A DNA stretch of 64,000 bases, from the NCBI GenBank assembly GCA_963693125.1, contig OY843767.1, positions 2,795,549 to 2,859,548 of the forward strand, given 5' to 3'. Below are positions 9,622 through 26,403 of the stretch, piece by piece. Within the stretch, counting starts at the first letter, position 1. Every line of letters starts with the position of its first letter. The stretch comes from Pseudomonadales bacterium (lineage in GTDB: Bacteria > Pseudomonadota > Gammaproteobacteria > Pseudomonadales > Azotimanducaceae). The position numbers and the translations under genes were made by a program. The notes under the pieces were generated by a model that saw only the letters and a program-made list of their open reading frames with translations, searched no databases and was not told the DNA's origin.

Positions 9622-9667
9622 TGTGTATAAAGATGGCCTGGCGTAAGAGATTGTGCTTTTTATCGCC

Positions 9668-10261
9668 CTATTCAAACGGACGATAATGTGGATGGTCTGC
9701 AATCGCCAGCATTTGTTTATCGCCACTACTATCACCGTATGCATGTATCACCTCATAATCATCAAGGGACAAACAGGCCTTGATGCGATCCACCTTTTCC
9801 TGGCCATGACAATTGGCGCCTTCAAATCGTCCGGTCAATATGCCACCTTGTTGTGCCATACGGGTACTTAACAATTCAAGCCCTTCTGCCTGGCAAAAGC
9901 CCTTGAGCCAGGTGTCAATTGATGCGGAGACCAAAATTACCCGATGACCCTGTGTCTTGTGCCAGCGCAGCTTTTCTATTGCTTTGGGCCTGATGATCCT
10001 GACGATCCGCGCTTTGGTATATTGTTCACCGAGTCGCTCAATTTTTTCAACCGTCCAGCCTTTGAAATAAAATCCAAGTAATTTTTCTTTGGCGACGTTG
10101 TTTTTCATCAGTTTCAATAGAAAAGCAGCCAGTATCGGACTCATAACCAACAAGCCCAGGTAATAACGTGGTTTGCCCACGGCATATTGAATAAAATCCA
10201 ATAACGAGTCTTTGGTCGTTATGGTGCCGTCAAAGTCGAACAGTGCCAGTTCTTTTTTCAC
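9668..10261 (-). CDS. HAD-IB family phosphatase (last gene of the island operon)
   Basis: 197-aa ORF with GTG start. HAD motif I FDFDGTIT and C-terminal GDSSGD. Confidence 0.8.
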   Translation of the reverse strand: MKKELALFDFDGTITTKDSLLDFIQYAVGKPRYYLGLLVMSPILAAFLLKLMKNNVAKEKLLGFYFKGWTVEKIERLGEQYTKARIVRIIRPKAIEKLRWHKTQGHRVILVSASIDTWLKGFCQAEGLELLSTRMAQQGGILTGRFEGANCHGQEKVDRIKACLSLDDYEVIHAYGDSSGDKQMLAIADHPHYRPFE

Positions 10262-10295
10262 CGGAAATAATTCCCTGTCAGTACCCTTCGGTTCA

Positions 10296-11957
10296 CTAAT
10301 TGGAGTTGATCATCTGGTAATAAGACAGACGGTTTTTCGGTTCAAAACTATCTTTAAGCAGTTGTGCCATTGACGACGATATCCCCAATGACTTCTTAAA
10401 AGCGTATATGTGACGATGAGTCCCATCTTCTTTATAATCGACTAAATAAATATCATAGTCATCATACTGGCTTTGTAAGAATTCAATGCTTACGGTAGCC
10501 GCTAAAGAAACCTTTGAAAGCCCAGATCGCTGAGCGTCAGTGGGTGGACTTTTTAGTTTGAAATGTTGCTTATTGTTGTCAGTCACAGGGAGCACCTTTT
10601 CACCGGATACCACCAACGGTGCAGGGTCAATTTGGCGATTGTGATGAAACAGTATGACATCTGGTGACAGTTGTTTCATGTATTGCACATCAATAATGTT
10701 TTTGGCCGGGTACACCGAATTAAGCCCCACCAGATCAACCAAAACATGCCCCCCCCCCCCCCCGATATTGATTCCATTCCAGTATGAAAAGCGCCCTGCT
10801 TCTGTTACTGCTATGGTCAAATCCTTCGGCAGCTTATCGTGCATGGTGTAAGAGGCCCGATTGAAATAGCTAAAAGTCGTCACTTTCATCGACTTGTTGA
10901 CATGATACCCGGCAATGACAACAAAGCCGACTAAATAGACCACCAGCCCCTTCGATAACAGGGCACCAGCTTTCTGTTCTTTGAATCTGGCCAGCAAAAG
11001 CTGTACCAGGACAAAATAGGCCACGATAAATATCGGTGCCTGAAATCTGTAACCGATATTTTGCGATTGATGGACCATCGTCAATGCCACAAATAGCAAT
11101 ATCAGCGGAGACATCAGAACCAGATAGTGCGTTATTTTTTTCGACATGAGTAACAATAAGGCACAGGGTAAGAAGGTATAAAGGTTGGAAACGCCCCATC
11201 TCAGGTTGGTTCTCACGCTCTCGGTTAAATCGGTATGGCCTTTAACATACAAGGGTAACGGCAACAAATTACCAAAGTAATGATAGCGCCAGACGAAATA
11301 AACAACCCCGATAACAAACGCAACTGACATGCCGAGCAGGTAGGTTTTGAATTGCCTGCGCTTATAGACCCTGACCAGACCTGTCAAGGTAAATGCCACG
11401 CCCATGATCACCCCATCGGGCCTGAATAGTGCAATGATAATGGCCAGGTAAGGCACTTTGCTCAGGTGTTCTTCCCGGCTGGTGGCGACAAACGTCAGCA
11501 ATACCAACGCCATATACAAATAGACACTAAAACCGCTCACGGCAGCACGCAGTGGTAATTGCACTGCCCACAATACAACAAACAGACTCATCAAACCGAT
11601 GGTTTTTTTATCCGTCAGTTGTGTACGCATAATTTCATGGGATATCACAGTGGTGATGATGCCCACGCCAACGGAGTTGAGTAAAATCGCCGAGGTGCCG
11701 ACATCCAATCCACTGAGCCCGACTCCAGCCAGCAATAGCAGCCATAAAAAATCTGTTGCCCCTTCTGCACGAGGACCACCAGGATAATAACTAATACCAT
11801 TACCACTGAGTATATTGTCTACATAAATAAACAATATGTAGGCATCTTCATGAAAGTGCCCGTTAGAGATCAGCCACAGGTTATATATAAAAAATACCGA
11901 GGCGCCAACGACACCAATCAACCACAACTTTGCTGGCGAATGCTCAACTGGATTCAT
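10296..11957 (-). CDS. Polytopic membrane protein, GT-C-like candidate arabinofuranosyltransferase, tandem paralog 1 (carries G15 tract)
   Basis: 553-aa ORF. About 10 hydrophobic spans fill residues 10-350, with an acidic HEDAY motif right after TM1. A ~200-aa C-terminal soluble domain follows. Sits directly downstream of the DPA-type donor genes. Confidence 0.65.
   Translation of the reverse strand: MNPVEHSPAKLWLIGVVGASVFFIYNLWLISNGHFHEDAYILFIYVDNILSGNGISYYPGGPRAEGATDFLWLLLLAGVGLSGLDVGTSAILLNSVGVGIITTVISHEIMRTQLTDKKTIGLMSLFVVLWAVQLPLRAAVSGFSVYLYMALVLLTFVATSREEHLSKVPYLAIIIALFRPDGVIMGVAFTLTGLVRVYKRRQFKTYLLGMSVAFVIGVVYFVWRYHYFGNLLPLPLYVKGHTDLTESVRTNLRWGVSNLYTFLPCALLLLMSKKITHYLVLMSPLILLFVALTMVHQSQNIGYRFQAPIFIVAYFVLVQLLLARFKEQKAGALLSKGLVVYLVGFVVIAGYHVNKSMKVTTFSYFNRASYTMHDKLPKDLTIAVTEAGRFSYWNGINIGGGGGHVLVDLVGLNSVYPAKNIIDVQYMKQLSPDVILFHHNRQIDPAPLVVSGEKVLPVTDNNKQHFKLKSPPTDAQRSGLSKVSLAATVSIEFLQSQYDDYDIYLVDYKEDGTHRHIYAFKKSLGISSSMAQLLKDSFEPKNRLSYYQMINSN
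10749..10763 (-). repeat. Homopolymeric G15 (C15 on plus strand) inside paralog 1, encoding GGGGG
   Basis: Counted directly: cc at 10749-50, ten c at 10751-60 and ccc at 10761-63. Paralogs 2 and 3 have only ggggg at the equivalent site. Confidence 0.9.
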
Positions 11958-11978
11958 AGATTCATGCCCTTCGGTTCA

Positions 11979-13625
11979 CTAATTGGAACTGATCATTTGG
12001 TAATAAGACAGATGGTTTTTCGGTTCAAAACTATCTTTAAGCAGTTGTGCCATTGACGACGATATCCCCAGCGACTTCTTAAAAGCGTATATGTGAGAAC
12101 GAAGCTCATCTTCAGGACGATAGATTAAATAAATATCATAGTCATCATACTGGCTTTGTAAGAATTCAATGCTTACAGTAGCCGCTAAAGAAACCTTTGA
12201 AAGCCCAGGTCGCTGAGCGTCAGTGGGTGGACTTTTTGGTTTGAAATGTTGCTTATTGTTGTCAGTCAGAGGGAGCACCTTTTCACCGGATACCACCAAC
12301 GGTGCAGGGTCAATTTGGCGAGCGTGATGAAACAGTATGACATCTGGTGACAGTTGTTTCATGTATTGCACATCAATAATGTTTTTGGCCGGGTACACCG
12401 AATTAAGCCCCACCAAATCAACCAAAACATGGCCCCCGGATTGATTCCAGTATGAAAAGCGTCCTGCTTTTGTTACTGCTATGGTCAAATCCTTCGGCAG
12501 CTTATCGTGCATGGTGTAAGGTACCAGATCCCTATGGTTAGAAGTCGTCATTTCCATCGACTTGTTGACATGATACCCGGCAATGACAACAAAGCCGACT
12601 AAATAGACCATCAGCCCCTTCGATAACAGGGCACCAGCTTTCTGTTCTTTGAATCTGGCCAGCAAAAGCTGTACCAGGACAAAATAGGCCACGATAAATA
12701 TCGGTGCCTGAAATCTGTAACCGATATTTTGCGATTGATGGACCATCGTCAATGCCACAAATAGCAATATCAGCGGAGACATCAGAACCAGATAGTGCGT
12801 TATTTTTTTCGACATGAGTAACAATAAGGCACAAGGCAAGAAGGTATAAAGGTTGGAAACACCCCATCTCAGGTTGGCTTTCACGCTCTCGGTTAAATCG
12901 GTATGGCCTTTAACATACAAGGGTAACGGCAACAAATTACCAAAGTAATTATAGCGCCAGACGAAATAAACAATCCCGATAACAAACGCAATTAACATGC
13001 CGAGCAGGTAGGTTTTGAATTGCCTGCGCTTATAGACCCTGACCAGACCTATCAGGGTAAATGCCACGCCCATGATCACCCCATCGGGCCTGAATAGCGC
13101 AATGATAATGGCCAGATAAGGCACTTTGCTCAGGTGTTCTTCCCGGCTGGTGGCGACAAACGTCAGCAATACCAACGCCATATACAAATAGACACTAAAA
13201 CCGCTCACGGCAGCACGCAGTGGTAATTGCACCGCCCACAATACAACAAACAGACTCATCAAACCGATGGTTTTTTTATCCGTCAACTGTGCACGCATAA
13301 TTTCATGGGATATAACAGTGGTGATGATGCCCACGCCAACGGAGTTGAGTAAAATCGCCGAGGTGCCGACATCCAATCCACTGAGCCCGACTCCAGCCAG
13401 CAATAGCAGCCATAAAAAATCTGTTGCCCCTTCTGCACGAGGACCACCAGGATAATAACTAATGCCATTACCACTGAGTATATTGTCTACATAAATAAAC
13501 AATATGTAGGCATCTTCATGAAAGTGCCCGTTAGAGATCAGCCACAGGTTATATATAAAAAATACCGAGGCGCCAACGACACCAATCAACCACAACTTTG
13601 CCGGCGACTGCTCAACTGGATTCAT
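11979..13625 (-). CDS. Polytopic GT-C-like membrane protein, tandem paralog 2
   Basis: 548-aa ORF. By eye it has only ~10 differences from paralog 1 in the first ~350 residues. Confidence 0.65.
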   Translation of the reverse strand: MNPVEQSPAKLWLIGVVGASVFFIYNLWLISNGHFHEDAYILFIYVDNILSGNGISYYPGGPRAEGATDFLWLLLLAGVGLSGLDVGTSAILLNSVGVGIITTVISHEIMRAQLTDKKTIGLMSLFVVLWAVQLPLRAAVSGFSVYLYMALVLLTFVATSREEHLSKVPYLAIIIALFRPDGVIMGVAFTLIGLVRVYKRRQFKTYLLGMLIAFVIGIVYFVWRYNYFGNLLPLPLYVKGHTDLTESVKANLRWGVSNLYTFLPCALLLLMSKKITHYLVLMSPLILLFVALTMVHQSQNIGYRFQAPIFIVAYFVLVQLLLARFKEQKAGALLSKGLMVYLVGFVVIAGYHVNKSMEMTTSNHRDLVPYTMHDKLPKDLTIAVTKAGRFSYWNQSGGHVLVDLVGLNSVYPAKNIIDVQYMKQLSPDVILFHHARQIDPAPLVVSGEKVLPLTDNNKQHFKPKSPPTDAQRPGLSKVSLAATVSIEFLQSQYDDYDIYLIYRPEDELRSHIYAFKKSLGISSSMAQLLKDSFEPKNHLSYYQMISSN

Positions 13626-13685
13626 AGATTCATGCCCTTAAACTTCCATTGCAGTATGGTTCATCTATCAATGCCTTTCAGTTCA

Positions 13686-15332
13686 CTAATTGGAACTGAT
13701 CATTTGGTAATAAGGCAGACGGTTTTTCGGTTCAAAACTATCTTTAATCAATTGTGCCATTGACGACGATATCCCCAGTGATTTCTTAAAAGCGTATATG
13801 TAAGAAAAAAACTCATTTCCAGAATGATAGACTAAGTAAATATCATAGTCATCATACCGGCTTTGCAAGAATTCAATGCTTACAGTAGCCGCTAAAGAAG
13901 CCTTTGAAAGCCCAGGTCGCTGAGCGTCAGTGGGTGGCCTTTTTAGTTTGAAATGCTGCATATTGTTGTCAGTCAGAGGGAGCACCTTTTCACCGGGTAC
14001 CACCAAAGGTGTAGGGTCAATATGGTAATATTGATGAACCATCATGACATCTGGTGACAGTTGTTTCATGTATTGCATATCAATAGTGTTTTTGGCCGGA
14101 TACACAGAATTAAGCCCCACCAAATCAACCAAAACATGGCCCCCGGATTGATTCCAGTATGAAAAGTGCCCGGCTTCTGTTACTGCTATGGTCAAATCCT
14201 TTGGCAGCTTATCGTGCATGGTGTAAGGGGCTTTATTGCCATGGTGAAAAGTCACCGCATACATCGACTTGTTGACATGATACCCGGCAATGACAACAAA
14301 GCCGACTAAATAGACCACCAGCCCCTTCGATAACACGGCACCAGCTTTCTGTTCTTTGAATCTGGCCAACAAAAGCTGTACCAGGACAAAATAGGCCACG
14401 ATGAATATCGGTGCTTGAAATCTGTAACCGATATTTTGCGATTGATGGACCATCGTCAATGCCACAAATAGCAATATCAGCGGAGACATCAAAACCAGAT
14501 AGTGCGTTATTTTTTTCGACATAAGTAACAATAAGGCACAGGGTAAGAAGGCATAAAGGTTGAAAACGCCCCATCTCAGATTGGTTTTCACGCTCTCGAT
14601 TAAATCGGTATGGCCTTTAACATACAGGGGTAACGGCAACAAATTACCAAAGTAATGATAGCGCCAGACGAAATAAACAACCCCGATAACAAACACAATT
14701 AACATACCGAGTACGTAGGTTTTGAATTGCCTGCGCTTATAGACCCTGACCAGACCTATCAGGGTAAATGCCACGCCCATGATCACCCCATCGGGCCTGA
14801 ATAGCGCAATGATAATGGCCAGATAAGGCACTTTGCTCAGGTGTTCTTCCCGGCTGGTGGCGACAAACGTCAGCAATACCAACGCCATATATAAATAGAC
14901 ACTATGGCCGCCCACGGCAGCAACCAGTGGTGATTGCACCGCCCACAATACAACAAACAGACTCATCAAACCGATGGTTTTCTTATCCGTCAGTTGTGCA
15001 CGCATAATTTCATGGGATATCACAGTGGTGATGATGCCCACGCCAACGGAGTTGAGTAAAATCGCCGAGGTGCCGACATCCAATCCACTGAGCCCGACTC
15101 CAGCCAGCAATAGCAGCCACAGAAAATCTGTTGCCCCTTCCGCATGAGGACCACCGGGATAATAACTAATACCATTACCACTGAGTATATTGTCTACATA
15201 AATAAACAATATGTAGGCATCTTCATGAAAGTGCCCGTTAGAGATCAGCCACAGGTTATATATAAAAAATACCGAGGCGCCAACGACACCAATCAACCAC
15301 AACTTTGCGGGTGACTGCTCAACTGGAGTCAT
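13686..15332 (-). CDS. Polytopic GT-C-like membrane protein, tandem paralog 3
   Basis: 548-aa ORF. Its start overlaps the dprE2-like stop by 4 nt (ATGA). Confidence 0.65.
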   Translation of the reverse strand: MTPVEQSPAKLWLIGVVGASVFFIYNLWLISNGHFHEDAYILFIYVDNILSGNGISYYPGGPHAEGATDFLWLLLLAGVGLSGLDVGTSAILLNSVGVGIITTVISHEIMRAQLTDKKTIGLMSLFVVLWAVQSPLVAAVGGHSVYLYMALVLLTFVATSREEHLSKVPYLAIIIALFRPDGVIMGVAFTLIGLVRVYKRRQFKTYVLGMLIVFVIGVVYFVWRYHYFGNLLPLPLYVKGHTDLIESVKTNLRWGVFNLYAFLPCALLLLMSKKITHYLVLMSPLILLFVALTMVHQSQNIGYRFQAPIFIVAYFVLVQLLLARFKEQKAGAVLSKGLVVYLVGFVVIAGYHVNKSMYAVTFHHGNKAPYTMHDKLPKDLTIAVTEAGHFSYWNQSGGHVLVDLVGLNSVYPAKNTIDMQYMKQLSPDVMMVHQYYHIDPTPLVVPGEKVLPLTDNNMQHFKLKRPPTDAQRPGLSKASLAATVSIEFLQSRYDDYDIYLVYHSGNEFFSYIYAFKKSLGISSSMAQLIKDSFEPKNRLPYYQMISSN

Positions 15333-16060
15333 ATACTCATGCCCTTAAACTTCCATTCAGGAATGGATTTTATGATCAGCATGATGTACTTCCAAATCCA
15401 GCGACAATACAACTCATTACGATTGCCCTGTTGGGCTGTAAAAATCGCCTTTGCAACTTCTTCCGGCTCTGCTGTAAGTTTTTCCGGCAGGCCCATACCT
15501 TTGGTCATCCTGGTGTTAACAAAGCCAGGTTTAACAGTCAAAACACGCACCTTGTGATCATGCAGACGGTTGCGTAGACCGGATAAATAGGTGGTCAGGG
15601 CAGCCTTGGCAGAACCATATAGATAATTGGCCTTACGTCCGCGATCGCCTGCCACCGAACTGATACCAACGATGAACCCTGAACGGCGTGCCGCAAAATC
15701 ATCTGCGATGATATTAAGCATACTGACCACCGAAGTGTAATTGGTGTCTAGAATTGTTCTTGCTTCAACAAAATCGCTTTGCGCTTTTTCCTGGTCGCCC
15801 AGATAACCCACAGCACTTATCACACCCAGGGGCTTTTCCTCCAGGCTATCGTAAAATGCCTGATGGTTGTCAAAATCCAGCATATCCAACTCCGCACACC
15901 TGACCTTGCGACCAAAACGCACAGAAATATCCTGCGCCAATGGCTCAAGGCTACCCGCTTGTCGAGCCGCCAGATACAGGTCGTAACCATTCTCGGCATA
16001 TTGCCGCGCCAGGGCCCTGGCGATATCACTTTTGGCGCCAATTATTAATATGTAACCCAT
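15329..16060 (-). CDS. dprE2: DprE2-like SDR (polyprenylphospho-2-keto-pentofuranose reductase)
   Basis: 243-aa ORF. ISSVAGDRGRKANYLYGSAKAAL, VRVLTVKPGFVNTRM and the C-terminal IPEWKFK tail resemble M. tuberculosis Rv3791 as I recall it. Confidence 0.7.
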   Translation of the reverse strand: MGYILIIGAKSDIARALARQYAENGYDLYLAARQAGSLEPLAQDISVRFGRKVRCAELDMLDFDNHQAFYDSLEEKPLGVISAVGYLGDQEKAQSDFVEARTILDTNYTSVVSMLNIIADDFAARRSGFIVGISSVAGDRGRKANYLYGSAKAALTTYLSGLRNRLHDHKVRVLTVKPGFVNTRMTKGMGLPEKLTAEPEEVAKAIFTAQQGNRNELYCRWIWKYIMLIIKSIPEWKFKGMSI

Positions 16061-16061
16061 G

Positions 16062-17360
16062 TTATAGCTCTAGTCGTTTCGATTGCATGGAATGAAAAGT
16101 TTTGTTCATTTGGTATTTGCATCGCAGGGCCCGGAATTTATCGACGTCTGGATAACCCTGCTCAAAAACCTGCCTGGATACCCGGGCATCCTTGGCCAGA
16201 TATATTCGACCGCCATGAGCCAACACAATTTCGTCAAGTTTATCAAGCAGGGTAAAAAGACCCGGCTCTATTTTGAAATCGAGTGCCAATGAATACCCTT
16301 CCAGTGGGAAAGACAGGTAATTTTCATTCGCAGGACCGTACAACTTGAGCACGGCTAAAAAAGAGCCCTTGCCTGAGTCAGCAATCGTTTTTAGAATTAC
16401 CGACAAGCCTTCAAAACTGGCTTCTTTGGGTAGAATAAATTGATACTGGGTAAAACCATTTTTTCCGTAAATCCGATTCCAATGACCCACAGCATCGAGC
16501 GGAAAGAAGAAACTGTCGATAGACACCTTTTGCTCACTTACCGCCGCTTTGACTTTGCCGTAATATAGCCAGTTAAACGACTTCACCGACAGGGTATTGA
16601 GAGCAAAACCCGGAAGACTAAAAGGCACCGCTGGTTTGCTACTACTTTTATAGTCAAGTTTGCCCTTGGGCAAAAAATCGCCCACCCTCAGCAGGCAGCG
16701 ACCAATATCCGCGCCTTTGGCCAGACAATCAATCCAGGCGACTGAATAAGGGCTGTCAGCGTACTGCTCAAAAGCCTCGAACGTCTCACGTAAATTGGCT
16801 GTTTTAATGGTCGTTTGCCCTATCGTTTTAGCGCCAATTCGTTTGAGTCTGATACGTGCATCAAGCACAATACCTGTCAATCCCATCCCACCACAGGTAG
16901 CATGAAACAAGTCACTGTGCTCGGTGGCAGAGCAGGTCACGATATCACCATTGGGTAACATCAAGCGAAAATCCACCAGGAATTGACTAAAACAACCTGC
17001 CTGATGATGATTTTTGCCATGAACGTCACTGGCAATAGCACCACCGACGGTGATAAGTTTTGTGCCAGGTACCACCTGGAGAAACCAACCTTTGGGCACT
17101 ATAGAACGGATGATATCCGCCAGTAAGACACCGGATTGAACATGCAACACACCCAATTGGTCATCAAAGTGCAAAAACAGATCTCTCGGTCGCATTTGCA
17201 CCATGGCCCTGCTCAGCGCACTGTCGCCATAACTTCGTCCATTACCATAGGCAATTAACGCATTGTGCTCACGTAACATGGTACGCAATTGATCTAAATC
17301 ATCGAATTTCAATGCCTGACCATCACAGGTCGGATAATTGCCCCAACTACGTAAGTTCAT
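16062..17360 (-). CDS. dprE1: DprE1-like FAD-dependent polyprenylphosphoribose 2'-oxidase
   Basis: 432-aa ORF. GNGRSYGDSAL, PGTKLITVGGAIASDVHGKNHH, FTQYQFILP, and C-terminal GGRIYLAKDARV...SKRLEL parallel Rv3790 as I recall it. Confidence 0.75.
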   Translation of the reverse strand: MNLRSWGNYPTCDGQALKFDDLDQLRTMLREHNALIAYGNGRSYGDSALSRAMVQMRPRDLFLHFDDQLGVLHVQSGVLLADIIRSIVPKGWFLQVVPGTKLITVGGAIASDVHGKNHHQAGCFSQFLVDFRLMLPNGDIVTCSATEHSDLFHATCGGMGLTGIVLDARIRLKRIGAKTIGQTTIKTANLRETFEAFEQYADSPYSVAWIDCLAKGADIGRCLLRVGDFLPKGKLDYKSSSKPAVPFSLPGFALNTLSVKSFNWLYYGKVKAAVSEQKVSIDSFFFPLDAVGHWNRIYGKNGFTQYQFILPKEASFEGLSVILKTIADSGKGSFLAVLKLYGPANENYLSFPLEGYSLALDFKIEPGLFTLLDKLDEIVLAHGGRIYLAKDARVSRQVFEQGYPDVDKFRALRCKYQMNKTFHSMQSKRLEL

Positions 17361-17755
17361 GCAGCCTGCTCCGTGAAGACATATTTTCTATCGAGAAAAT
17401 ATTTCATCACATAACCGACAGATAGCCCGATCGCAGCCCCGACATATTTGGCCGCTTCATGATCAAAGTACCAGTCAAACCAAATTTCGGTGCCCCAAAA
17501 AATGAAAGTCGTGAAACCACCCGTCAAAGTATAAGAAACAAACTTCCTGGCGTCCTGAGTTTTAGACGTTGGTTTATGATGGAAAATAAACTTTTTGTCG
17601 AGCACATATTTACATACAAGTCCGGCACCTGTACCATTACACATGGCCAAAACCAGGCCCCCGGTGCCGTCATAAACCCACAGGCTGAGGTACTGGAACA
17701 ACAAATTAAGTAAAATAGAGACAATCGCAAACAGGGTATATTTAAAGGCTATCAT
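17357..17755 (-). CDS. GtrA family membrane protein (Rv3789-like)
   Basis: 132-aa ORF with four hydrophobic spans. Overlaps both neighbours by 4 nt. Confidence 0.7.
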   Translation of the reverse strand: MIAFKYTLFAIVSILLNLLFQYLSLWVYDGTGGLVLAMCNGTGAGLVCKYVLDKKFIFHHKPTSKTQDARKFVSYTLTGGFTTFIFWGTEIWFDWYFDHEAAKYVGAAIGLSVGYVMKYFLDRKYVFTEQAA

Positions 17756-18693
17756 TGGTAAATGATCCAGCCAAAAGAAGCCACCCAGCCAACAATGGTG
17801 AGTTGCAAAAATGTATCTTTGAGTACTATGCGGGTCGGCGAACCACTGTCTTTTTCAACAAAGGCGATTTGTAGGTAGCGCAAGATACCCAACATCACAA
17901 AAAATGCTGTGAGGTAAAGATATTCACTATGCCATTTGGCAGTGACATCGCCAGACGTGGTGTATTGAATATACGAAACAATCACCACTGTTGCTGTGAT
18001 CATCATCGCCACATCGATAAATTGCAAATTATAACCATCGATAACCGTGCGCATTTTTTTGCCGGTATCGAGAAAAATAAGGGTATCGTCACGGCGCTTG
18101 GCCAATGCCATGAAAAGGGCCAGCAGAAAAGTTATGATCACTATCCACATCGACAAATGAATACCGGTAACAACAGAGCCGACAAATAACCGCAATACAA
18201 ATCCGATAGCAATAATGTACACATCGATTATGGCAATGTGTTTTAAATGAAAACTGTAAGCGATGTTCATCACCACATAAGCCAGTAAAATGGCACCGGC
18301 CTGCAATGAGGCTGAAGCGATAAGTCCCCCCCCAACAATAAACAACGAGGTCATTAATATCAGCGCTACCTTACTTGTGACAGCGCCACTGGCCAAAGGT
18401 CGAAAGCGCTTTTCAGGATGCTGACGGTCATCTTCGATATCGCAATAATCGTTAACAATATAAATACCACTGGCACATATACAAAACGCAGCAAATGCCA
18501 AAAAGGACTGCCCAAGAAGCGCCATATTTTGAATATTGCCGGAAAAAAACAAAGGCAGAAAAATAAACAGGTTTTTAATGTATTGATGCGGACGCATCAG
18601 TTTAATGATGTGCTTCATGAATGATGATTCTTGCCTGAATGAGCTTTTGAAACTACTGGCTTTTGCTTGTTTGCCAGGGAGCCGTAACTTCAT
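17752..18693 (-). CDS. UbiA-family polyprenyl-phosphate 5-phosphoribosyltransferase (Rv3806c-like); start uncertain (18693, 18618 or TTG 18726)
   Basis: NDYCDIEDDRQHPEKRFRPLASG is the DPPR-synthase-type first Asp-rich motif. MRPHQYIKNLFIF forms the N-terminal helix. The protein is polytopic. The ATG at 18693 has TAAGG 8 nt upstream. Confidence 0.75.
   Translation of the reverse strand: MKLRLPGKQAKASSFKSSFRQESSFMKHIIKLMRPHQYIKNLFIFLPLFFSGNIQNMALLGQSFLAFAAFCICASGIYIVNDYCDIEDDRQHPEKRFRPLASGAVTSKVALILMTSLFIVGGGLIASASLQAGAILLAYVVMNIAYSFHLKHIAIIDVYIIAIGFVLRLFVGSVVTGIHLSMWIVIITFLLALFMALAKRRDDTLIFLDTGKKMRTVIDGYNLQFIDVAMMITATVVIVSYIQYTTSGDVTAKWHSEYLYLTAFFVMLGILRYLQIAFVEKDSGSPTRIVLKDTFLQLTIVGWVASFGWIIYQ
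18326..18333 (-). repeat. G8 homopolymer inside the ubiA-like gene (codons VGGG)
   Basis: Plus strand reads taagt-cccccccc-aacaata. It translates as IVGGGLI on the minus strand. Confidence 0.9.
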
Positions 18694-18807
18694 AGAAACC
18701 TTATAGATAAACGGCTTCAAATTCAAGCAAAATGGGCATGACGATGCACCGATGGCGGACGAACTGTTTCCCTCCGCAGGTTACCAGTATGTGCTCTATG
18801 GTATGGG

Positions 18808-19947
18808 TTATCGGCTATCCGGTACCCTGTTTTTCGGGCTCATGGCTTTCTCGCGATACCTGTCATATTTGGCGCCGGCATAAAACTGGTGGAAGAAAAT
18901 CCGGAAGTCGTTGATGGGACCGTCGCCGGCACAAAGTGGCGGGTTCTCAATGTAACGTTGCCGGTCCCAGACGACCTTGTCCTGATCCAGTTGCTTGCAG
19001 ATATCCTTGATAATTGCTTTTGCGACACCGCCGTTTTCACCGTCCCGGTCTGACTTCAGTTGTGTGAAGGCAAATCTGAGATGGGTAACATCTCTTGCGA
19101 CAGGCGTGACGCCGGTAATCAACAGGGTTTCGCAAATACCGGTGAACCGGGTCCAGGGTTGTCCTGAACCGTTGACTCCGAAGGCGATCGTACCCTCAAC
19201 CATACCTCTGGGGGTGCCCAGCTTCACAAATACCTCAGCGGCCCGGCAATGGCCATCGTAGGTTATATGGTAGTCCGGGTTGTCTGGCACGCCATGAATG
19301 AATTGAAAGTGTGCGCTGTCAGCGCCATTTTCGGCGATGGATTGTATGGGGCCATAAACAATCCATTCGTGTCGTTCATAGTCCGTCCAATCCGGGTGTC
19401 CAACCTCATCAAATTCTTTCAGATCATAGGTTGGTTCAATGTTGTCCGGGTGGTACCAGGCCCATATAAAACCGTTCGCTTCTTTGGTTGGATAACTGCG
19501 TTCGCATGCCGGTCTTTTCATTTTGGGCGGGATGGATTTCGAATAAGGAATCTCAACCGCAGCGCCTTCGCCGTCCCAGCGCCAGGCATGGAATGGGCAC
19601 TGGATGTTGTTGCCATCGACTTTTCCGCCGTAACCCATGTGAGCACCCAGATGAGGGCAGTACGCATCCAGGGTTCGCGGTATGCCATCTTCGCCACGCC
19701 AGACCACGAGTTCACGTTCAAAATATTCAAGCGGCCTGACCTCGCCGACTGAGAGTTCATCGCTGTAGCACAAAACGAACCAGCCAAAGGGCACTGGAAT
19801 CGTAATGTTCCTGTCGTCAGCGGATTTTCCGCGCCTGACTGGTTCGACTCGCCATTTAGCCAGCGATTCCCTGTCAAAATCTTTTAGTTGATCCCAGACG
19901 AGCACCGGCGGTGTCCGGGCATCGCGAATGTCTGTTGCCTCACTCAT
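18808..19947 (-). CDS. kshA: 3-ketosteroid 9-alpha-hydroxylase oxygenase component (Rieske)
   Basis: Rieske CPHLGAHMGYGGKVDGNNIQCPFHAWRW and non-haem Fe motif DSAHFQFIH. Start re-picked at MSEATDIRD (ATG 19947), which overlaps the upstream ligase stop. Gives 379 aa. Confidence 0.8.
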   Translation of the reverse strand: MSEATDIRDARTPPVLVWDQLKDFDRESLAKWRVEPVRRGKSADDRNITIPVPFGWFVLCYSDELSVGEVRPLEYFERELVVWRGEDGIPRTLDAYCPHLGAHMGYGGKVDGNNIQCPFHAWRWDGEGAAVEIPYSKSIPPKMKRPACERSYPTKEANGFIWAWYHPDNIEPTYDLKEFDEVGHPDWTDYERHEWIVYGPIQSIAENGADSAHFQFIHGVPDNPDYHITYDGHCRAAEVFVKLGTPRGMVEGTIAFGVNGSGQPWTRFTGICETLLITGVTPVARDVTHLRFAFTQLKSDRDGENGGVAKAIIKDICKQLDQDKVVWDRQRYIENPPLCAGDGPINDFRIFFHQFYAGAKYDRYREKAMSPKNRVPDSR

Positions 19948-21583
19948 TAGAGATTCCTTCTTCGAATTGCGATTTGATCTCGCGTTTGAGTAGCTTGCCC
20001 GTTGCATTTTTTGGCAGCTCAGCGGTCTGCACATAAAGTGCTTTGGGCACCTTGTATCCGGCGAGGCCGTCGGCGCAATGGGTTAGCAGGTCTTCAGCGC
20101 CGGTTGTTGCGGAATCATTGACTACCGCCACGGCGACTAGCTGCTCGCCCAATCGCTCGTCCGGTATGCCAAAGGCGGCACATTCGGTTACATCCGGATG
20201 GATGCCCAATACGCGCTCGACTTCAGCGCAGTAGATGTTCTCGCCGCCCGAAATCACCATATCGGTGAGCCGGTCAACAATGTACAGGTTTGCGTTCTCA
20301 TCGAAGTATCCCGCATCGCCGGTTGCAAACCAGCCGTTCTCGTCAATCACCTGCGCATCATGATTCGCATAGCCGGCCATTAACGATGCTCCCCGGACAA
20401 ATATTTCACCGACTTCACCTGCTGCAAGGGTCGCGCCGGTTGCATCACGAATTTCCCCATCAAAGGTTGCGATCATCCTGCCGACGCTGCCCGGATTGGC
20501 GATAAAATCCTCGCCTATGATCAGAGTGACTGTGCCGTTTGCTTCCGTCATGCCATATCCCGACCCGAGCACGGCGCCGGGGAATTCGGTTTGAATCGCC
20601 TTCAGCAGCGATGGGGGTGTTGCCTGTCCGCCGACAGACAGAGAAGTAATGCTGGATAGATCAAAGGATGATCGTTGCTCGTTGTGCAGGATGTCCCAGT
20701 GCATTGTCGGAACGCCGGGGAAAGACGTAACCTTTTCCTGCTCGATCAATCGCAGTGCCTCGGTGGCGTCCCATCGTGGCAACAGGACAAGTTTGCCGCC
20801 CTGCATCATCCCGGACAGGAACACTGCATGACAGCCACTTACGTGAAAGAGCGGAAAGACGAGCAGGGTTACGGGAGGCGGTCGCATGCTGATGAGTGTT
20901 TCGTAGTCGATGTTATATCGCCGTGCCATCTGATCGGCGATCAGGGCGCCGGAATACCGGATGGTCTTTAGAGATGTCAGCACCCCCTGGTTGGTCAGGA
21001 TTGCCGCTTTGGGTCTGCCGGTTGTCCCGCTTGTGAACATCAGTAGCGCTTCGTCATCACCCGCCCGTGTGACGTCAGGCAGTGTCGAATCCGGCTTGCG
21101 GATTGCCAGGCTGCGTGCCTGCTGACTTGAAATGGACTGCGTATCTGCTGATTGGTCGCCCAGCAACAAGAGGCACCGGGTGGATGCTATACAGTACCGA
21201 AGCTCATCATCTGAAGCGCGAGCATTAACGAGAACCGGCACGGCACCCAGAGAAACCAGGGCAGTGAATGAAAGAACCCATTCGATAGAGTTGGGGTAGG
21301 CCAGGGCCACCCGACTGCCTGGCCTGACCTGATACCCGTCGCCCAGACTGTCGGCCAGTGACGCGGCCATTGTCTGAAATTGCCCGTAGGTGATTCGCTC
21401 ACCATCGGCGACCACGAAATCGTTGGCGCCAAACTCGTCAAGGTAGCGAAAAATCTGATTCAGGCAGTCGAAGTTTTCTTCAAAATCCCGATATGACCTG
21501 CCACGGATGACCCTTTCAACCAGTTTATATTCTGTTTCAATCGCCTCGTTCAACGTTTCACCAATATTTCGTGCAATATGCAT
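19940..21583 (-). CDS. AMP-dependent acyl-CoA synthetase (steroid side-chain ligase-like)
   Basis: 547-aa ORF with MFTSGTTGRPKA (AMP-binding P-loop), GYGMTE, GWFATGD and PKNATGKLLK. Confidence 0.85.
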   Translation of the reverse strand: MHIARNIGETLNEAIETEYKLVERVIRGRSYRDFEENFDCLNQIFRYLDEFGANDFVVADGERITYGQFQTMAASLADSLGDGYQVRPGSRVALAYPNSIEWVLSFTALVSLGAVPVLVNARASDDELRYCIASTRCLLLLGDQSADTQSISSQQARSLAIRKPDSTLPDVTRAGDDEALLMFTSGTTGRPKAAILTNQGVLTSLKTIRYSGALIADQMARRYNIDYETLISMRPPPVTLLVFPLFHVSGCHAVFLSGMMQGGKLVLLPRWDATEALRLIEQEKVTSFPGVPTMHWDILHNEQRSSFDLSSITSLSVGGQATPPSLLKAIQTEFPGAVLGSGYGMTEANGTVTLIIGEDFIANPGSVGRMIATFDGEIRDATGATLAAGEVGEIFVRGASLMAGYANHDAQVIDENGWFATGDAGYFDENANLYIVDRLTDMVISGGENIYCAEVERVLGIHPDVTECAAFGIPDERLGEQLVAVAVVNDSATTGAEDLLTHCADGLAGYKVPKALYVQTAELPKNATGKLLKREIKSQFEEGISNE

Positions 21584-25914: not shown

Positions 25915-26403
25915 ATGGTTGAAAAAGGAGAATTGAAAGCACCCGGTGGGCTTGCACCCGATGATCTGGATATGAAAATTATCCGGCTTCTGCAATCCGA
26001 TGGTCGAATGTCTACCCAGGATATTGCCAAAACCCTGAATTCAACGTCTTCAACGATCCGCAAGCGTATTGGTCGCCTTGAGGATAGCGGTACGATGCGT
26101 GTTGTGGCAGTGACTGATTTTACAGCGGCGGGATATGACGTTTTGCTTGCCATCGGGATTGAGGTTGAAAGCCGGAGCGCTCAGGCAGTGGGCGAAGATC
26201 TGGCGAATTTGCCCGAGGTTTTTTCTGTCAACCTGACCACTGGCAGCTACGATATTGAGATTCTGGTGGGTACGCGTTCCTTTGATGAGCTGGCTGTTTT
26301 CCTGCATGAAGAAGTTGCCGGTATAGAGGGAATCGGCAGGCTCAGTCCGGGGTTAACTGTTGAGGTCTATAAGTATCAGTCAGAGATGGTGCCACAGATA
26401 TGA
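25915..26403 (+). CDS. Lrp/AsnC family transcriptional regulator
   Basis: 162-aa ORF with an HTH (LDMKIIRLLQSDGRMSTQDIAKTLNSTSSTIRKRIGRLEDSG) plus a RAM-like C-terminal domain. Confidence 0.85.
   Translation: MVEKGELKAPGGLAPDDLDMKIIRLLQSDGRMSTQDIAKTLNSTSSTIRKRIGRLEDSGTMRVVAVTDFTAAGYDVLLAIGIEVESRSAQAVGEDLANLPEVFSVNLTTGSYDIEILVGTRSFDELAVFLHEEVAGIEGIGRLSPGLTVEVYKYQSEMVPQI

What the first reader, a model, noticed from the sequence alone, without database searches (positions are those of the whole stretch)
9622..18807. Low-GC ~9-kb island: a complete DPA-type (polyprenyl-phospho-D-arabinofuranose) donor pathway plus three GT-C-like transferases, inserted inside a steroid-catabolism supercluster
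Seen: eight co-directional minus-strand genes with 1-4 nt start/stop overlaps. They are a UbiA-type transferase (NDYCDIEDDRQHPEKRFRPLASG), GtrA, a DprE1-type FAD oxidase ([22 protein letters not shown] ... GGRIYLAKDARV ... KRLEL), a DprE2-type SDR, three polytopic paralogs and a HAD-IB phosphatase. My hand GC counts on individual 60-nt lines give ~37-50% inside and ~52-65% in both flanks. Both flanks are steroid-degradation genes: SDR/fadE/kstD on the left, kshA/ligase on the right. Established: Rv3806c, a phosphatase, DprE1 and DprE2 make decaprenyl-P-arabinose, the Araf donor of the Corynebacterineae wall. To my knowledge it is documented only sporadically outside that group (P. aeruginosa group IV pilin arabinosylation via TfpW, Azorhizobium Nod-factor arabinosylation). 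Inference: this is a horizontally acquired surface-glycan arabinofuranosylation module. No pilin, nod, O-antigen or capsule genes are visible in the window, so the acceptor and the transferase family appear uncharacterised.
Basis: partly seen in the sequence, partly recalled or inferred. Interest (0 to 1): 0.85.

Follow-up and report, generated by a model that had tools for sequence, protein, structure and literature searches.

The report
Acquired arabinofuranose glycosylation island, AftB-like transferases
A horizontally acquired 9-kb gene block inside a steroid-degradation cluster most likely makes a lipid-linked D-arabinofuranose donor and attaches the sugar outside the cytoplasm, using three near-identical copies of an uncharacterised, AftB-related membrane transferase; the system type was described in 2024, while the transferase family and its rapidly diversifying tandem array are new details.

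Summary
Window 9622-18807 holds eight co-directional minus-strand genes at 42-48% GC against ~55% flanks (GC3 and tetranucleotide z = 11-18 agree). Both flanks are steroid catabolism genes. None of 80 relatives carrying kshA has any island gene nearby, and several have an empty site.

Five genes are the full donor pathway for polyprenyl-phospho-D-arabinofuranose: a UbiA-type phosphoribosyltransferase, a HAD-IB phosphatase, DprE1-like and DprE2-like epimerase enzymes, and a GtrA flippase.

The three "paralogs" are a recent tandem array (89-93% identical) of a GT-C-fold protein (pLDDT 93). Its only sequence-level relative among solved structures is mycobacterial AftB (hhalign 89%). Invariant D38, T68 and R179 align with AftB's D62, T91 and R221. 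The family has no Pfam model, at least 1,349 cluster representatives, and sits beside DprE1/DprE2 in 29 of 79 independent loci.

The copies fall into three types defined by three hypervariable patches in an unmatched periplasmic C-terminal domain (dN/dS 3-7). Copy number and type mix differ among five co-occurring strains.

The system kind is already published (Kelly et al. 2024, PNAS), so the rarity claim is outdated. The acceptor is unknown. Verdict: a new variant of a known kind, of moderate interest.

The parts
17752..18618 (-). UbiA-type polyprenyl-phosphate 5-phosphoribosyltransferase (PPPRS; Rv3806c-like), 288 aa from the ATG at 18618 (the ORF is open to a TTG at 18726)
   Evidence: NCBIfam NF008978 decaprenyl-phosphate phosphoribosyltransferase, 224 bits, above the cut-off of 207. 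The only PDB hits are DPPR synthase 8j8j/8j8k, E = 7e-40. Called as 288 aa in sister strains.
17357..17755 (-). GtrA-family small membrane protein, candidate flippase for the lipid-linked pentofuranose (same family as Rv3789)
   Evidence: Pfam GtrA_DPMS_TM 3.5e-10. NCBIfam gtrA_1, 157 bits, above the cut-off of 50. Flippase activity is inferred, not shown.
16062..17360 (-). DprE1-like FAD-dependent polyprenyl-phospho-ribose 2'-oxidase
   Evidence: PDB best hits are all DprE1 (6e-73); the next family is cytokinin dehydrogenase at 7e-8. NCBIfam DprE1 equivalog 386 bits, below its cut-off of 500. The YxAKDxR lysine region is conserved, and Ala replaces the benzothiazinone-reactive Cys.
15329..16060 (-). 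DprE2-like SDR, 2'-keto reductase completing the ribose-to-arabinose epimerisation
   Evidence: PDB best hit DprE2 at 1e-29, next hit 1.7e-18. NCBIfam DprE2 167 bits, below its cut-off of 250; PRK07102 SDR 358 bits, above its cut-off.
13686..15332 (-). GT-C transferase copy 1, type A (548 aa)
   Evidence: 90% identical to copy 2. Type A signature YAVTFHHGNKAP / MMVHQYYH / YHSGNEFFSY is shared with the first copy in all four sister strains.
11979..13625 (-). GT-C transferase copy 2, type B (548 aa), the modelled copy
   Evidence: AF2 pLDDT 93.1, pTM 0.93. The top 19 Foldseek hits are all GT-C enzymes, with AftB at ranks 2-3. hhalign to AftB: probability 89%, E = 2.4e-6. 11 TM helices, N-terminus inside, loop 1 and the C-terminal domain periplasmic.
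10296..11957 (-). GT-C transferase copy 3, type C (553 aa)
   Evidence: 93% identical to copy 2. Type C signature KVTTFSYFNRAS / DYKEDGTHRH is shared with L169 copy c at 96% identity.
12519..12554 (-). Hypervariable patch 1 (aa 358-369 of copy 2), at the junction of TM11 and the periplasmic domain
   Evidence: Column entropy peak. Patches together give dN/dS 3.2-6.6. Nonsynonymous changes are clustered, p <= 2e-4.
12300..12326 (-). Hypervariable patch 2 (aa 434-442 of copy 2), a loop after a beta-strand in the C-terminal domain
12093..12125 (-). Hypervariable patch 3 (aa 501-511 of copy 2), a beta-hairpin tip in the C-terminal domain
9668..10261 (-). HAD-IB phosphatase, candidate polyprenyl-phospho-ribose-5-phosphate phosphatase
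   Evidence: Pfam HAD 3e-35. TIGR01490, 141 bits, above the cut-off of 98. Homologs at 37-51% identity occupy the same module in L089, L090, L103, L109 and L110. Substrate is inferred.
18619..18807 (.). Right boundary spacer between the kshA stop and the UbiA start
   Evidence: No promoter-like or terminator-like site on the minus strand. Composition switches here.
9622..9667 (.). Left boundary spacer between the convergent SDR and HAD stop codons
   Evidence: No flanking direct repeat, tRNA, IS element or integrase.

Best explanation
The island is a self-contained, horizontally acquired module for extracytoplasmic D-arabinofuranosylation. It is a variant of the 'three-component' pentofuranose glycosylation systems.

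Proposed steps, all inferred from homology:
(1) The UbiA-type enzyme transfers ribose-5-phosphate from PRPP to a polyprenyl phosphate.
(2) The HAD-IB phosphatase removes the 5-phosphate.
(3) The DprE1-like oxidase and DprE2-like reductase epimerise C2', giving polyprenyl-phospho-beta-D-arabinofuranose.
(4) GtrA moves the donor to the periplasmic leaflet.
(5) The AftB-related GT-C enzymes transfer Araf to an acceptor encoded elsewhere in the genome, most likely an LPS or other envelope polysaccharide.

The enzymes share an interchangeable 11-TM catalytic module with a periplasmic ED (D38), T68 and R179 active site. They carry a periplasmic C-terminal domain of unmatched fold that defines three types (A, B, C). 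The three types probably differ in acceptor or linkage recognition. Unequal recombination changes their copy number and mix between strains, so the array acts as a device for diversifying the surface glycan.
For: Donor pathway:
- Specific best matches to DPPR synthase, DprE1 and DprE2, plus a GtrA and a HAD-IB protein above curated cut-offs.
- The same gene order, UbiA-GtrA-DprE1-DprE2-GTC-HAD, occurs in independent marine contigs L089 and L090.

Transferase:
- Confident GT-C fold.
- The family profile's only GT-C hit in the PDB is AftB, with hhalign probability 89% over 203 columns.
- Invariant D38, T68 and R179 align with AftB D62 (catalytic), T91 and R221 (phosphate binding). These AftB residues were defined experimentally (PMC12041299).
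- All invariant charged residues lie on the predicted periplasmic face.

Genomic linkage:
- 29 of 79 metagenome loci have DprE1 and/or DprE2 adjacent to the GT-C gene, and 5 more have UbiA only.
- In Vibrio and Enterovibrio the module lies within WecA/Wzz/GT4/Wzy_C polysaccharide loci.

Horizontal acquisition:
- GC, GC3 and tetranucleotide shift.
- No island genes near kshA in 80 relatives, with kshA abutting fadE in several.
- The nearest homologous modules are on contigs of 32-36% GC.

Diversification:
- Three conserved types, with arrays A-B-C, A-A-A-B, A-B-B, A-B-truncated and A-B-C in five strains.
- Patch dN/dS is 3.2-6.6, against 0.2-0.4 elsewhere.
- Nonsynonymous changes are clustered (p <= 2e-4) while synonymous ones are not.
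- The N-terminal module shows no type structure (0.034 vs 0.033), whereas the C-terminal domain does (0.097 vs 0.028).

Precedent: Kelly et al. 2024.
Against: - No biochemical data exist for any member of this GT-C family.
- The DprE1-like and DprE2-like proteins score below NCBI's equivalog cut-offs, so they are the closest matches rather than proven isofunctional orthologs.
- About half of the family members with at least 5 kb of flank on both sides have no donor-synthesis gene nearby. Two close relatives (L088, L095) have UbiA but no DprE1/2, so donor sugar may vary within the family.
- AftB similarity is remote (hmmsearch E = 0.038) and covers only the N-terminal half. AftB E172 and R372 have no confirmed counterparts.
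- No acceptor gene is in the window.
- The patches were first chosen by their variability, which inflates dN/dS; the clustering test mitigates this but does not remove it.
- Spatial proximity of the patches to the active site could not be measured, because no model coordinates were available.
Confidence: 0.72

Rival explanations
1. Same machinery, but the acceptor is a protein such as a pilin or another periplasm-exposed protein. The enzymes would build short Araf oligomers on Ser/Thr, as TfpW does in P. aeruginosa group IV strains, rather than decorating a polysaccharide.
For: The P. aeruginosa D-Araf system uses the same kind of donor genes together with one GT-C that both polymerises and transfers (bioRxiv 10.1101/2020.04.19.049825). 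There the transferase is unlinked from the donor genes, which matches the many 'stand-alone' members of this family. A Ketobacter homolog sits next to a Wzy_C protein, the family of the pilin O-oligosaccharyltransferases and O-antigen ligases.
Against: There is no pilin gene in the window or beside any sampled homolog. The C-terminal domain is alpha/beta, not the TPR domain that characterises TfpW. Where the context is informative, it is an LPS or polysaccharide locus.
Confidence: 0.15
2. The donor is not arabinofuranose. The oxidase/reductase pair would yield another pentofuranose or a keto-sugar, or the transferases would mainly use polyprenyl-P-ribofuranose.
For: The DprE1 and DprE2 homologs are below equivalog cut-offs. 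GT136 ORF12 is donor-promiscuous between Ribf and Xylf. The family members in L088 and L095 have UbiA but no DprE1/2 nearby.
Against: The oxidase matches DprE1 about 65 orders of magnitude better than any other FAD oxidase family, and it conserves the C-terminal GGRxYxAKDxR...RLEL region. DprE2 is the best SDR match. In published systems, the DprE1+DprE2 pairing correlates with Araf-containing glycans.
Confidence: 0.08
3. The three large membrane proteins are not glycosyltransferases. They could be another kind of polytopic envelope protein, such as a polymerase, ligase or transporter, that merely co-occurs with the pathway.
For: There is no Pfam or CAZy-type sequence assignment. TM-scores to solved GT-C enzymes are only about 0.5.
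Against: All 19 best fold hits are GT-C enzymes at Foldseek probability 0.89-1.0, and the non-GT-C hits that first appear after them have probability <= 0.11. The catalytic-loop motif and the phosphate-binding Arg align with AftB residues proven by mutagenesis. The module otherwise lacks any transferase.
Confidence: 0.04
4. The low GC and the 'island' appearance are intrinsic (membrane-protein codon bias), or the tandem copies are an assembly artefact. On this view it is neither a horizontal acquisition nor a real array.
For: Five of the eight genes encode membrane proteins, which are AT-rich at codon positions 1 and 2. Repeats at 93-96% identity are prone to misassembly.
Against: GC3 and the soluble DprE1, DprE2 and HAD genes show the same drop. 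The tetranucleotide z-score is 11-18. Relatives have empty or differently filled sites. Five independent contigs carry intact arrays with the same three conserved types.
Confidence: 0.03

Closest known systems
Three-component extracytoplasmic pentofuranose glycosylation systems (Kelly, Duong, Nothof, Lowary, Whitfield, PNAS 2024; prototype Citrobacter youngae O1/O2 ORF12-15; GT-C = founding member of CAZy GT136)
   Same: The logic is the same: a UbiA-type polyprenyl-phosphoribose synthase, a phosphoribose phosphatase, a small flippase (MATE or SMR/GtrA type) and a GT-C with 11 TM helices, a periplasmic loop-1 active site and an extra C-terminal periplasmic domain. DprE1/E2 homologs are added where the sugar is Araf. 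Multi-GT-C versions are noted in Xanthomonas and Bacillus, and most of these GT-C genes are annotated as hypothetical.
   Different: Here the phosphatase is a separate HAD-IB gene rather than fused to the synthase. The GT-C is 548 aa (ORF12 is 652 aa), with an alpha/beta C-terminal domain of unmatched fold instead of a beta-rich CBM. Its nearest sequence relative is AftB, whereas ORF12's is reported to be ArnT. Its predicted phosphate ligands are Arg, whereas ORF12's proposed ligands are His106 and Tyr350. The module is not inside a glycan locus. The GT-C is present as a 3-4 copy diversifying tandem array. Sequence membership in GT136 could not be tested.
Mycobacterial AftB (Rv3805c; CAZy GT89), the DPA-dependent retaining beta-(1->2) arabinofuranosyltransferase (structures 9dlf/9dlh)
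   Same: It is the only sequence-detectable relative among solved structures and among the top fold hits. It uses the same predicted donor class. The ED/DD catalytic motif, the EGAT/EANT loop threonine and the RPD/RPE phosphate-binding arginine align.
   Different: Identity is about 15-22% and similarity is confined to the N-terminal 240 residues. No counterpart of AftB's intramembrane beta-sheet appears in the model. The periplasmic domain is different. AftB E172 is not conserved. The host is a Gram-negative proteobacterium with no arabinan. The stereochemical outcome (retaining or inverting) is unknown.
Pseudomonas aeruginosa group IV pilin arabinosylation (TfpW plus the PsPA7_6245-6249 D-Araf genes)
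   Same: It is a Gram-negative system with Rv3806c-, DprE1-, DprE2- and GtrA-like donor genes plus a phosphatase, and an 11-TM GT-C with an acidic loop-1 motif and a periplasmic C-terminal domain (gene complement partly from my own knowledge of Harvey et al. 2011).
   Different: TfpW is 646 aa with a C-terminal TPR domain and lies immediately downstream of pilA. Here there is no TPR domain and no pilin gene, and the transferases are fused into the donor operon as an array.
GtrABC-type O-antigen glucosylation (Shigella and Salmonella phage-borne seroconversion modules)
   Same: It has a GtrA-family flippase and a polytopic serotype-specific transferase acting in the periplasm on a lipid-phosphate sugar. 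It is horizontally mobile and drives antigenic diversity.
   Different: The donor there is made by a GtrB (GT2) enzyme from UDP-glucose, not from PRPP by a UbiA-type enzyme with an epimerase pair. No phage or viral copy of this GT-C family was found.

Membership tests
Three-component pentofuranose glycosylation system (Kelly et al. 2024) | UbiA-type polyprenyl-phosphate phosphoribosyltransferase (PPPRS) | tested here: met
   NF008978, 224 bits, above the cut-off of 207. PDB 8j8j at 7e-40.
Three-component pentofuranose glycosylation system (Kelly et al. 2024) | Phosphatase that removes the ribose 5-phosphate (HAD-type PRP, fused or separate) | tested here: inconclusive
   A HAD-IB phosphatase is present and conserved in homologous modules. 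Homology to the PRP domain specifically, and the substrate, could not be tested.
Three-component pentofuranose glycosylation system (Kelly et al. 2024) | Small flippase (MATE or SMR/GtrA type) for the lipid-linked sugar | tested here: met
   GtrA family, gtrA_1 at 157 bits, above the cut-off of 50. Activity is inferred.
Three-component pentofuranose glycosylation system (Kelly et al. 2024) | GT-C-fold transferase with a periplasmic active site | tested here: met
   pLDDT 93 model with all top fold hits GT-C. Topology with loop 1 periplasmic.
Three-component pentofuranose glycosylation system (Kelly et al. 2024) | DprE1/DprE2-type epimerase pair when the sugar is Araf | tested here: met
Three-component pentofuranose glycosylation system (Kelly et al. 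2024) | Located in or next to the biosynthetic locus of the modified glycan | tested here: not met
   The window island lies between kshA and steroid SDR/fadE genes, and no glycan genes occur in the 64 kb. The feature is met by homologous modules in Vibrio and Enterovibrio.
CAZy GT136 (C. youngae ORF12) | Significant sequence similarity to ORF12 | not testable with these tools
   No GT136 sequence could be obtained. BK026208, CP099034 and CP032687 are absent from the collections, and the supplement holds no sequence.
CAZy GT136 (C. youngae ORF12) | 11 TM helices, a helical periplasmic domain after TM1, and a beta-rich C-terminal CBM (residues 503-652) | tested here: not met
   The 11 TM helices and the loop-1 helices are present. 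The C-terminal domain, however, is a 188-aa alpha/beta domain with no PDB fold match, and the TM region ends at about residue 360.
CAZy GT89 / AftB | Family-level sequence similarity across the catalytic domain | tested here: not met
   hmmsearch E = 0.038 at 15.6 bits. hhalign probability 89%, 22% identity, N-terminal 203 columns only. This indicates a remote homolog, not a member.
CAZy GT89 / AftB | Catalytic Asp of the DD motif at the tip of juxtamembrane helix 1 (D62) | tested here: met
   Invariant E37-D38 aligns with D61-D62.
CAZy GT89 / AftB | Donor-phosphate ligands R221, R372 and T91 | tested here: inconclusive
   R179 aligns with R221 and T68 with T91. R372 lies outside the aligned region; invariant R304 in a periplasmic loop is a candidate only.
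CAZy GT89 / AftB | Split TM3/TM10 forming an intramembrane beta-sheet | tested here: not met
   DSSP of the model shows no strands within residues 86-360.
TfpW-type pilin arabinosyltransferase | C-terminal periplasmic TPR domain | tested here: not met
   The C-terminal domain has six beta-strands interleaved with helices and no TPR match. TfpW description.
TfpW-type pilin arabinosyltransferase | Gene immediately downstream of the major pilin gene | tested here: not met
   No pilin gene in the window or in sampled homolog contexts.
Mycobacterial DPA pathway (Rv3806c, Rv3807c, DprE1, DprE2, Rv3789) | Equivalog-level match of the oxidase and reductase to DprE1 and DprE2 | tested here: not met
   386 bits against a cut-off of 500, and 167 bits against a cut-off of 250. 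They are nevertheless by far the best matches.
Mycobacterial DPA pathway (Rv3806c, Rv3807c, DprE1, DprE2, Rv3789) | PAP2-type phosphatase (Rv3807c) | tested here: not met
   The phosphatase here is HAD-IB. The Vibrio and Enterovibrio modules carry a DUF212 protein instead.

The most novel reading that the evidence does not exclude
This AftB-related, Pfam-less protein family (at least 1,349 clusters at 50% identity) is a distinct and so far unrecognised CAZy-level family of polyprenyl-phospho-arabinofuranose-dependent transferases. It would be the main partner of DprE1/DprE2 in Gram-negative bacteria and evolutionarily closer to mycobacterial AftB than to GT136 or TfpW. In this lineage it forms a recombining tandem cassette array. 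A shared catalytic module is combined with three positively selected acceptor-recognition variants of a new periplasmic fold, generating strain-level surface-glycan diversity within a single community.
Probability: 0.4. Interest if true: 0.65.

Novelty: new variant of a known kind. Interest (0 to 1): 0.5.

Why it matters
D-arabinofuranose is best known as the building block of the mycobacterial wall and as a validated drug-target pathway (DprE1). This finding would matter in four ways:

- **Evolutionary link.** A large, unannotated family of AftB-like transferases is wired to DprE1/DprE2 across Proteobacteria, Bacteroidota and Myxococcota. That would connect mycobacterial arabinan enzymes to the Gram-negative glycan-decoration systems described in 2024.
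- **Annotation.** It gives a sequence and structure handle for thousands of 'hypothetical' membrane proteins: the HxxEDAYI, EGATDFLW, LFRPDG and LPLPLYVK motifs.
- **Glyco-engineering.** It provides new candidate enzymes for adding Araf side chains.
- **Evolution in action.** The tandem array, with a homogenised catalytic module and three hypervariable, positively selected periplasmic patches, differs among co-existing strains. It is a compact natural example of how surface-glycan specificity may diversify.

The steroid-cluster location itself seems incidental.

Tried and rejected
- **GT136 sequence.** I tried to obtain one for a direct comparison. The phage record BK026208, E. coli CP099034 and Rhizobium CP032687 are not in the collections. 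The paper's supplement has figures only.
- **Exact-sequence look-up** of the window's own GT-C found nothing.
- **Single-sequence PDB search** with the GT-C found nothing meaningful. Only the family profile reached AftB.
- **Pfam scan** of all 67 family members at E <= 1 found no recurrent family.
- **Phage, plasmid and viral searches.** There were no phage or viral homologs, and only three distant plasmid hits.
- **Boundary analysis.** No tRNA, IS element, integrase, flanking direct repeats or above-chance promoters or terminators were found, so the insertion mechanism is unresolved.
- **C-terminal domain fold search** gave no significant match. I rejected the weak sequence hint to periplasmic binding proteins (E = 0.77).
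- **3D mapping of the patches** relative to D38 was not possible, because no coordinates are exposed.
- **Breakpoint mapping.** Relatives in the genome collection are too distant (KshA <= 76% identity) for nucleotide-level mapping.
- **Rejected alternative.** I considered and rejected the idea that the patches were imported by recombination from divergent alleles. dS in the patches (0.07-0.18) is not elevated relative to the rest of the gene, although synonymous sites there are few.

Full report
**1. Observation**

The region 9622-18807 contains eight co-directional minus-strand ORFs:
- HAD, 9668-10261
- three 548-553 aa membrane proteins, 10296-11957, 11979-13625 and 13686-15332
- an SDR, 15329-16060
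- a FAD oxidase, 16062-17360
- GtrA, 17357-17755
- a UbiA-family protein, 17752-18726

The compositional anomaly is real. GC in 1-kb windows is 0.43-0.48 inside and about 0.52-0.58 in the rest of the 64 kb. It is not just a membrane-protein effect. GC3 is 0.46-0.51 inside against 0.52-0.66 outside, and the soluble DprE1-like gene has GC 0.463. Tetranucleotide distance to the rest of the window is 11-18 SD above the outside mean, where the maximum is about 2 SD.

- Only the UbiA/GtrA, GtrA/DprE1 and DprE2/GT-C junctions are 4-nt overlaps. DprE1/DprE2 is a 1-nt gap, and the GT-C/GT-C/GT-C/HAD junctions have 21-60 nt spacers.
- UbiA most likely starts at the ATG at 18618 (288 aa), as called in sister strains.

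**2. Flanks and acquisition**

The flanks are steroid catabolism genes:
- two KstD-like flavoproteins, two FadE-type dehydrogenases and SDRs
- KshA (Rieske + KshA_C)
- a CasG-like ligase and a FadD3 ligase above its curated cut-off
- HsaA-like, HsaC/D/E/F/G-type enzymes
- IpdAB-type CoA transferase, hydratases and thiolases

No pilin, O-antigen, capsule or nod gene was found among the other ORFs of at least 150 aa.

A scan of one genome per species with KshA returned 80 loci. The best are uncultured Pseudomonadales MAGs at no more than 76% identity. None has any island gene within 10 kb. In L009, L010, L020, L028 and L029, kshA directly abuts the fadE ortholog, which is effectively an empty site. 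In L014 and L016 the same junction holds a GMC oxidoreductase and a DUF3604 gene at host-like GC, so this junction is a variable spot.

The island has no tRNA, integrase, IS element or flanking direct repeats. The closest non-strain homologous modules lie on contigs of 32-36% GC. The window's UbiA is closest to Bacteroidota plasmid homologs (43-49% identity) rather than actinobacterial ones (about 33%). This is consistent with a low-GC donor and partial amelioration. Horizontal acquisition is well supported; the mechanism is unknown.

**3. Donor pathway**

- **UbiA protein.** It exceeds the curated cut-off of an NCBIfam decaprenyl-phosphate phosphoribosyltransferase model (224 bits against 207). 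Its only PDB hits are that enzyme (7e-40).
- **FAD oxidase.** It matches DprE1 structures at 6e-73, with the next family at 7e-8. It conserves the GGRxYxAKDxR...RLEL C-terminus. It has Ala at the position of the benzothiazinone-reactive Cys.
- **SDR.** Its best match is DprE2 (1e-29).
- **Cut-offs.** Both the oxidase and the SDR are below NCBI's equivalog cut-offs, so isofunctionality is inferred rather than shown.
- **GtrA and HAD-IB.** Both are above their cut-offs.

The same gene order, UbiA-GtrA-DprE1-DprE2-GTC-HAD, recurs on independent marine contigs L089 and L090, at 60-66% identity for UbiA, GtrA, DprE1 and DprE2 and 46% for HAD. The five non-transferase genes therefore supply every step from PRPP and polyprenyl phosphate to periplasmic polyprenyl-P-Araf, by established knowledge of the mycobacterial and P. 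aeruginosa pathways.

**4. The transferases**

The three large proteins have no Pfam or NCBIfam match. No Pfam family recurs among 67 homologs even at E <= 1.

An AlphaFold2 model built from 67 homologs is very confident (pLDDT 93.1, pTM 0.93). All 19 best Foldseek hits in the PDB are GT-C glycosyltransferases: ALG12, AftB, PglB, STT3, AftA, ArnT, Emb, Pmt.

Secondary structure plus the positive-inside rule gives 11 TM helices and a cytoplasmic N-terminus. Loop 1 (residues 32-85) and the 188-aa C-terminal domain are periplasmic. All invariant polar residues lie on the periplasmic side: E37, D38, E65, D69, R179, K239, Q299, N300 and R304.

The family profile's only GT-C hit among all PDB sequences is AftB (E = 0.038). 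hhalign against the AftB segment gives 89% probability (E = 2.4e-6, 203 columns). In that alignment:
- E37-D38 matches the AftB DD motif, whose D62 is catalytically essential.
- T68 matches T91, a phosphate hydrogen-bond donor.
- R179 matches R221, an essential phosphate ligand.

These AftB functions come from PMC12041299. AftB E172 and R372 have no confirmed counterparts. I conclude that the family is a remote homolog of AftB with a conserved donor site. It is not a GT89 member.

**5. Family size and linkage**

The exhaustive profile search finds 1,349 cluster representatives (50% identity) at E <= 1e-30 and 11,043 at E <= 1e-10. Every named homolog is 'hypothetical' and comes from Gammaproteobacteria, Alphaproteobacteria, Bacteroidota or Myxococcota.

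Among 79 metagenome loci found with the family profile:
- 29 have DprE1 and/or DprE2 homologs adjacent to the GT-C gene
- 5 more have UbiA only
- of the 11 loci with at least 5 kb on both sides, 6 carry a donor-synthesis gene

In Vibrio and Enterovibrio the whole module sits inside LPS-type loci with WecA, Wzz, GT4s, GT25 and Wzy_C. In Enterovibrio it is flanked by IS66 fragments. Other members stand alone, in Thiomicrorhabdus, Archangium and a MAG, as tfpW does relative to its donor genes. No copy is on phage or viral contigs.

**6. The tandem array**

The three window copies are 89-93% identical in protein and 93-96% in DNA, with a 1668-1707 bp period.

Four further strain-level contigs from one metagenome (ENA ERZ22155170) carry the island at the same site, with flanks 96-99% identical where measured (L001). 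Their arrays differ. The copies fall into three conserved types defined by three short patches at aa 358-369, 434-442 and 501-511:

| Contig | Array |
|---|---|
| window | A-B-C |
| L169 | A-B-C |
| L001 | A-A-A-B |
| L167 | A-B-B |
| L168 | A-B + truncated copy |

Between types, dN/dS is 0.21-0.27 in the TM module, 0.28-0.39 in the rest of the C-terminal domain and 3.2-6.6 in the patches. Patch dS is not elevated. Because the patches were chosen by their variability, I ran a position-blind test. Nonsynonymous differences reach 9-10 within a 12-codon window (permutation p <= 2e-4), whereas synonymous differences are unclustered (p = 0.55-0.99).

In the N-terminal 350 codons, distance between types within a strain (0.034) equals distance within a type between strains (0.033). 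In the C-terminal part the values are 0.097 and 0.028. Individual N-terminal polymorphisms, such as GGH/SGF at 141-143, are shuffled across types. The catalytic module is therefore homogenised by recombination, while the type-specific C-terminal patches are maintained.

The C-terminal domain alone models confidently (pLDDT 92.7) and has no significant PDB fold match (best probability 0.25). It is not a TPR domain, not a known CBM and not AftB's periplasmic domain.

**7. Comparison with the literature**

Kelly et al. 2024 (PMC11127046) established three-component systems for periplasmic addition of alpha-pentofuranoses. These comprise a PPPRS, a PRP phosphatase, a MATE or SMR-type flippase and a GT-C, with C. 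youngae ORF12 as the founding member of GT136. They report:
- DprE1/E2 homologs in Araf-containing systems
- wide distribution across bacteria
- GT-C genes mostly annotated as hypothetical
- multi-GT-C systems in Xanthomonas and Bacillus

I could not obtain any GT136 sequence, so sequence membership is untested. By description, ORF12 differs in several ways:
- it is 652 aa with a beta-rich CBM
- ArnT is its nearest relative
- His106 and Tyr350 are proposed as phosphate ligands

TfpW has a TPR domain and is linked to pilA. Neither feature applies here.

**8. Verdict**

The best explanation (confidence about 0.72) is an acquired, self-contained Araf-donor-plus-transferase module whose acceptor is encoded elsewhere, probably an envelope polysaccharide.

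What is new relative to the literature:
- (a) an AftB-related, unannotated and large GT-C family as the transferase
- (b) a periplasmic domain of unmatched fold
- (c) a recombining, copy-number-variable tandem array with three positively selected specificity patches
- (d) placement outside any glycan locus

What remains unshown is the sugar identity, the acceptor, the linkage and the anomeric outcome, the flippase and phosphatase activities, and whether the family is distinct from GT136.

Noticed in passing
L009, L010, L020 (empty); L014:7326-11133 and L016 (GMC oxidoreductase + DUF3604); window 9622-18807: The junction between kshA and the SDR/fadE genes is a variable insertion spot in this lineage. 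It is empty in some relatives, holds two unrelated host-GC genes in others, and holds the Araf island here.
   Followed up: partly
window GT-C copies, aa 141-143 (for example window 13197-13205 in copy 2): There is a second dimorphism, 'GGH' versus 'SGF', inside the catalytic module. It is shuffled among copies independently of the C-terminal type. Residue 143 is a nearly invariant Phe in the wider family. Position 141 aligns with AftB E172 (a donor C5-OH contact), though in a low-confidence part of the alignment.
   Followed up: partly
window 16062-17360 (-): The DprE1-like oxidase has Ala where M. smegmatis DprE1 has the benzothiazinone-reactive cysteine (GYSLALDF versus GWNVCVDF). It would therefore be predicted to be insensitive to covalent BTZ-type inhibitors.
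   Followed up: no
L168:11666-12934: In one sister strain the third GT-C copy is truncated and diverged (422 aa, 86-90% identity to the others). It appears to be a decaying array member.
   Followed up: no
L088:16-2112 and L095:9140-11629: The closest non-strain GT-C homologs (47% identity) have a UbiA gene directly upstream. L095 has no DprE1/DprE2 within 10 kb on either side; L088 has almost no upstream sequence. Some family members may therefore use polyprenyl-P-ribofuranose.
   Followed up: no
window 18619-18807: The 189-bp spacer between the kshA stop and the UbiA start has no terminator-like or promoter-like match on the minus strand. The island could be transcribed by read-through from the kshA/ligase operon, and so be co-expressed with steroid catabolism.
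   Followed up: no
L087 (Chondrinema litorale plasmid NZ_CP111066.1, 8715-27560): A Bacteroidota plasmid carries UbiA, a FAD oxidase and an SDR (the closest plasmid homologs of the window's UbiA, 49% identity). It also carries several different GT-C-type genes (two GT39-like, one DUF2723, plus hypotheticals), acyltransferases and an IS3 transposase. This is a multi-transferase Araf-type module on a mobile replicon.
   Followed up: no
window 25915-26879 (+): Two adjacent AsnC/Lrp-family regulator genes sit inside the steroid cluster, rather than the TetR-type KstR regulators usual in actinobacterial steroid clusters.
   Followed up: no
L169:20987-21650: One sister strain has a DDE_Tnp_1 transposase about 9 kb beyond the island's left flank. 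At the same position sister strain L001 has an Oxidored_FMN gene instead.
   Followed up: no
window 18808-20034 (-) and 19940-21583 (-): The mechanical KshA ORF (408 aa) overlaps the upstream ligase by 95 nt. Sister-strain gene calls give 379-383 aa, so the true start is probably near 19947.
   Followed up: no
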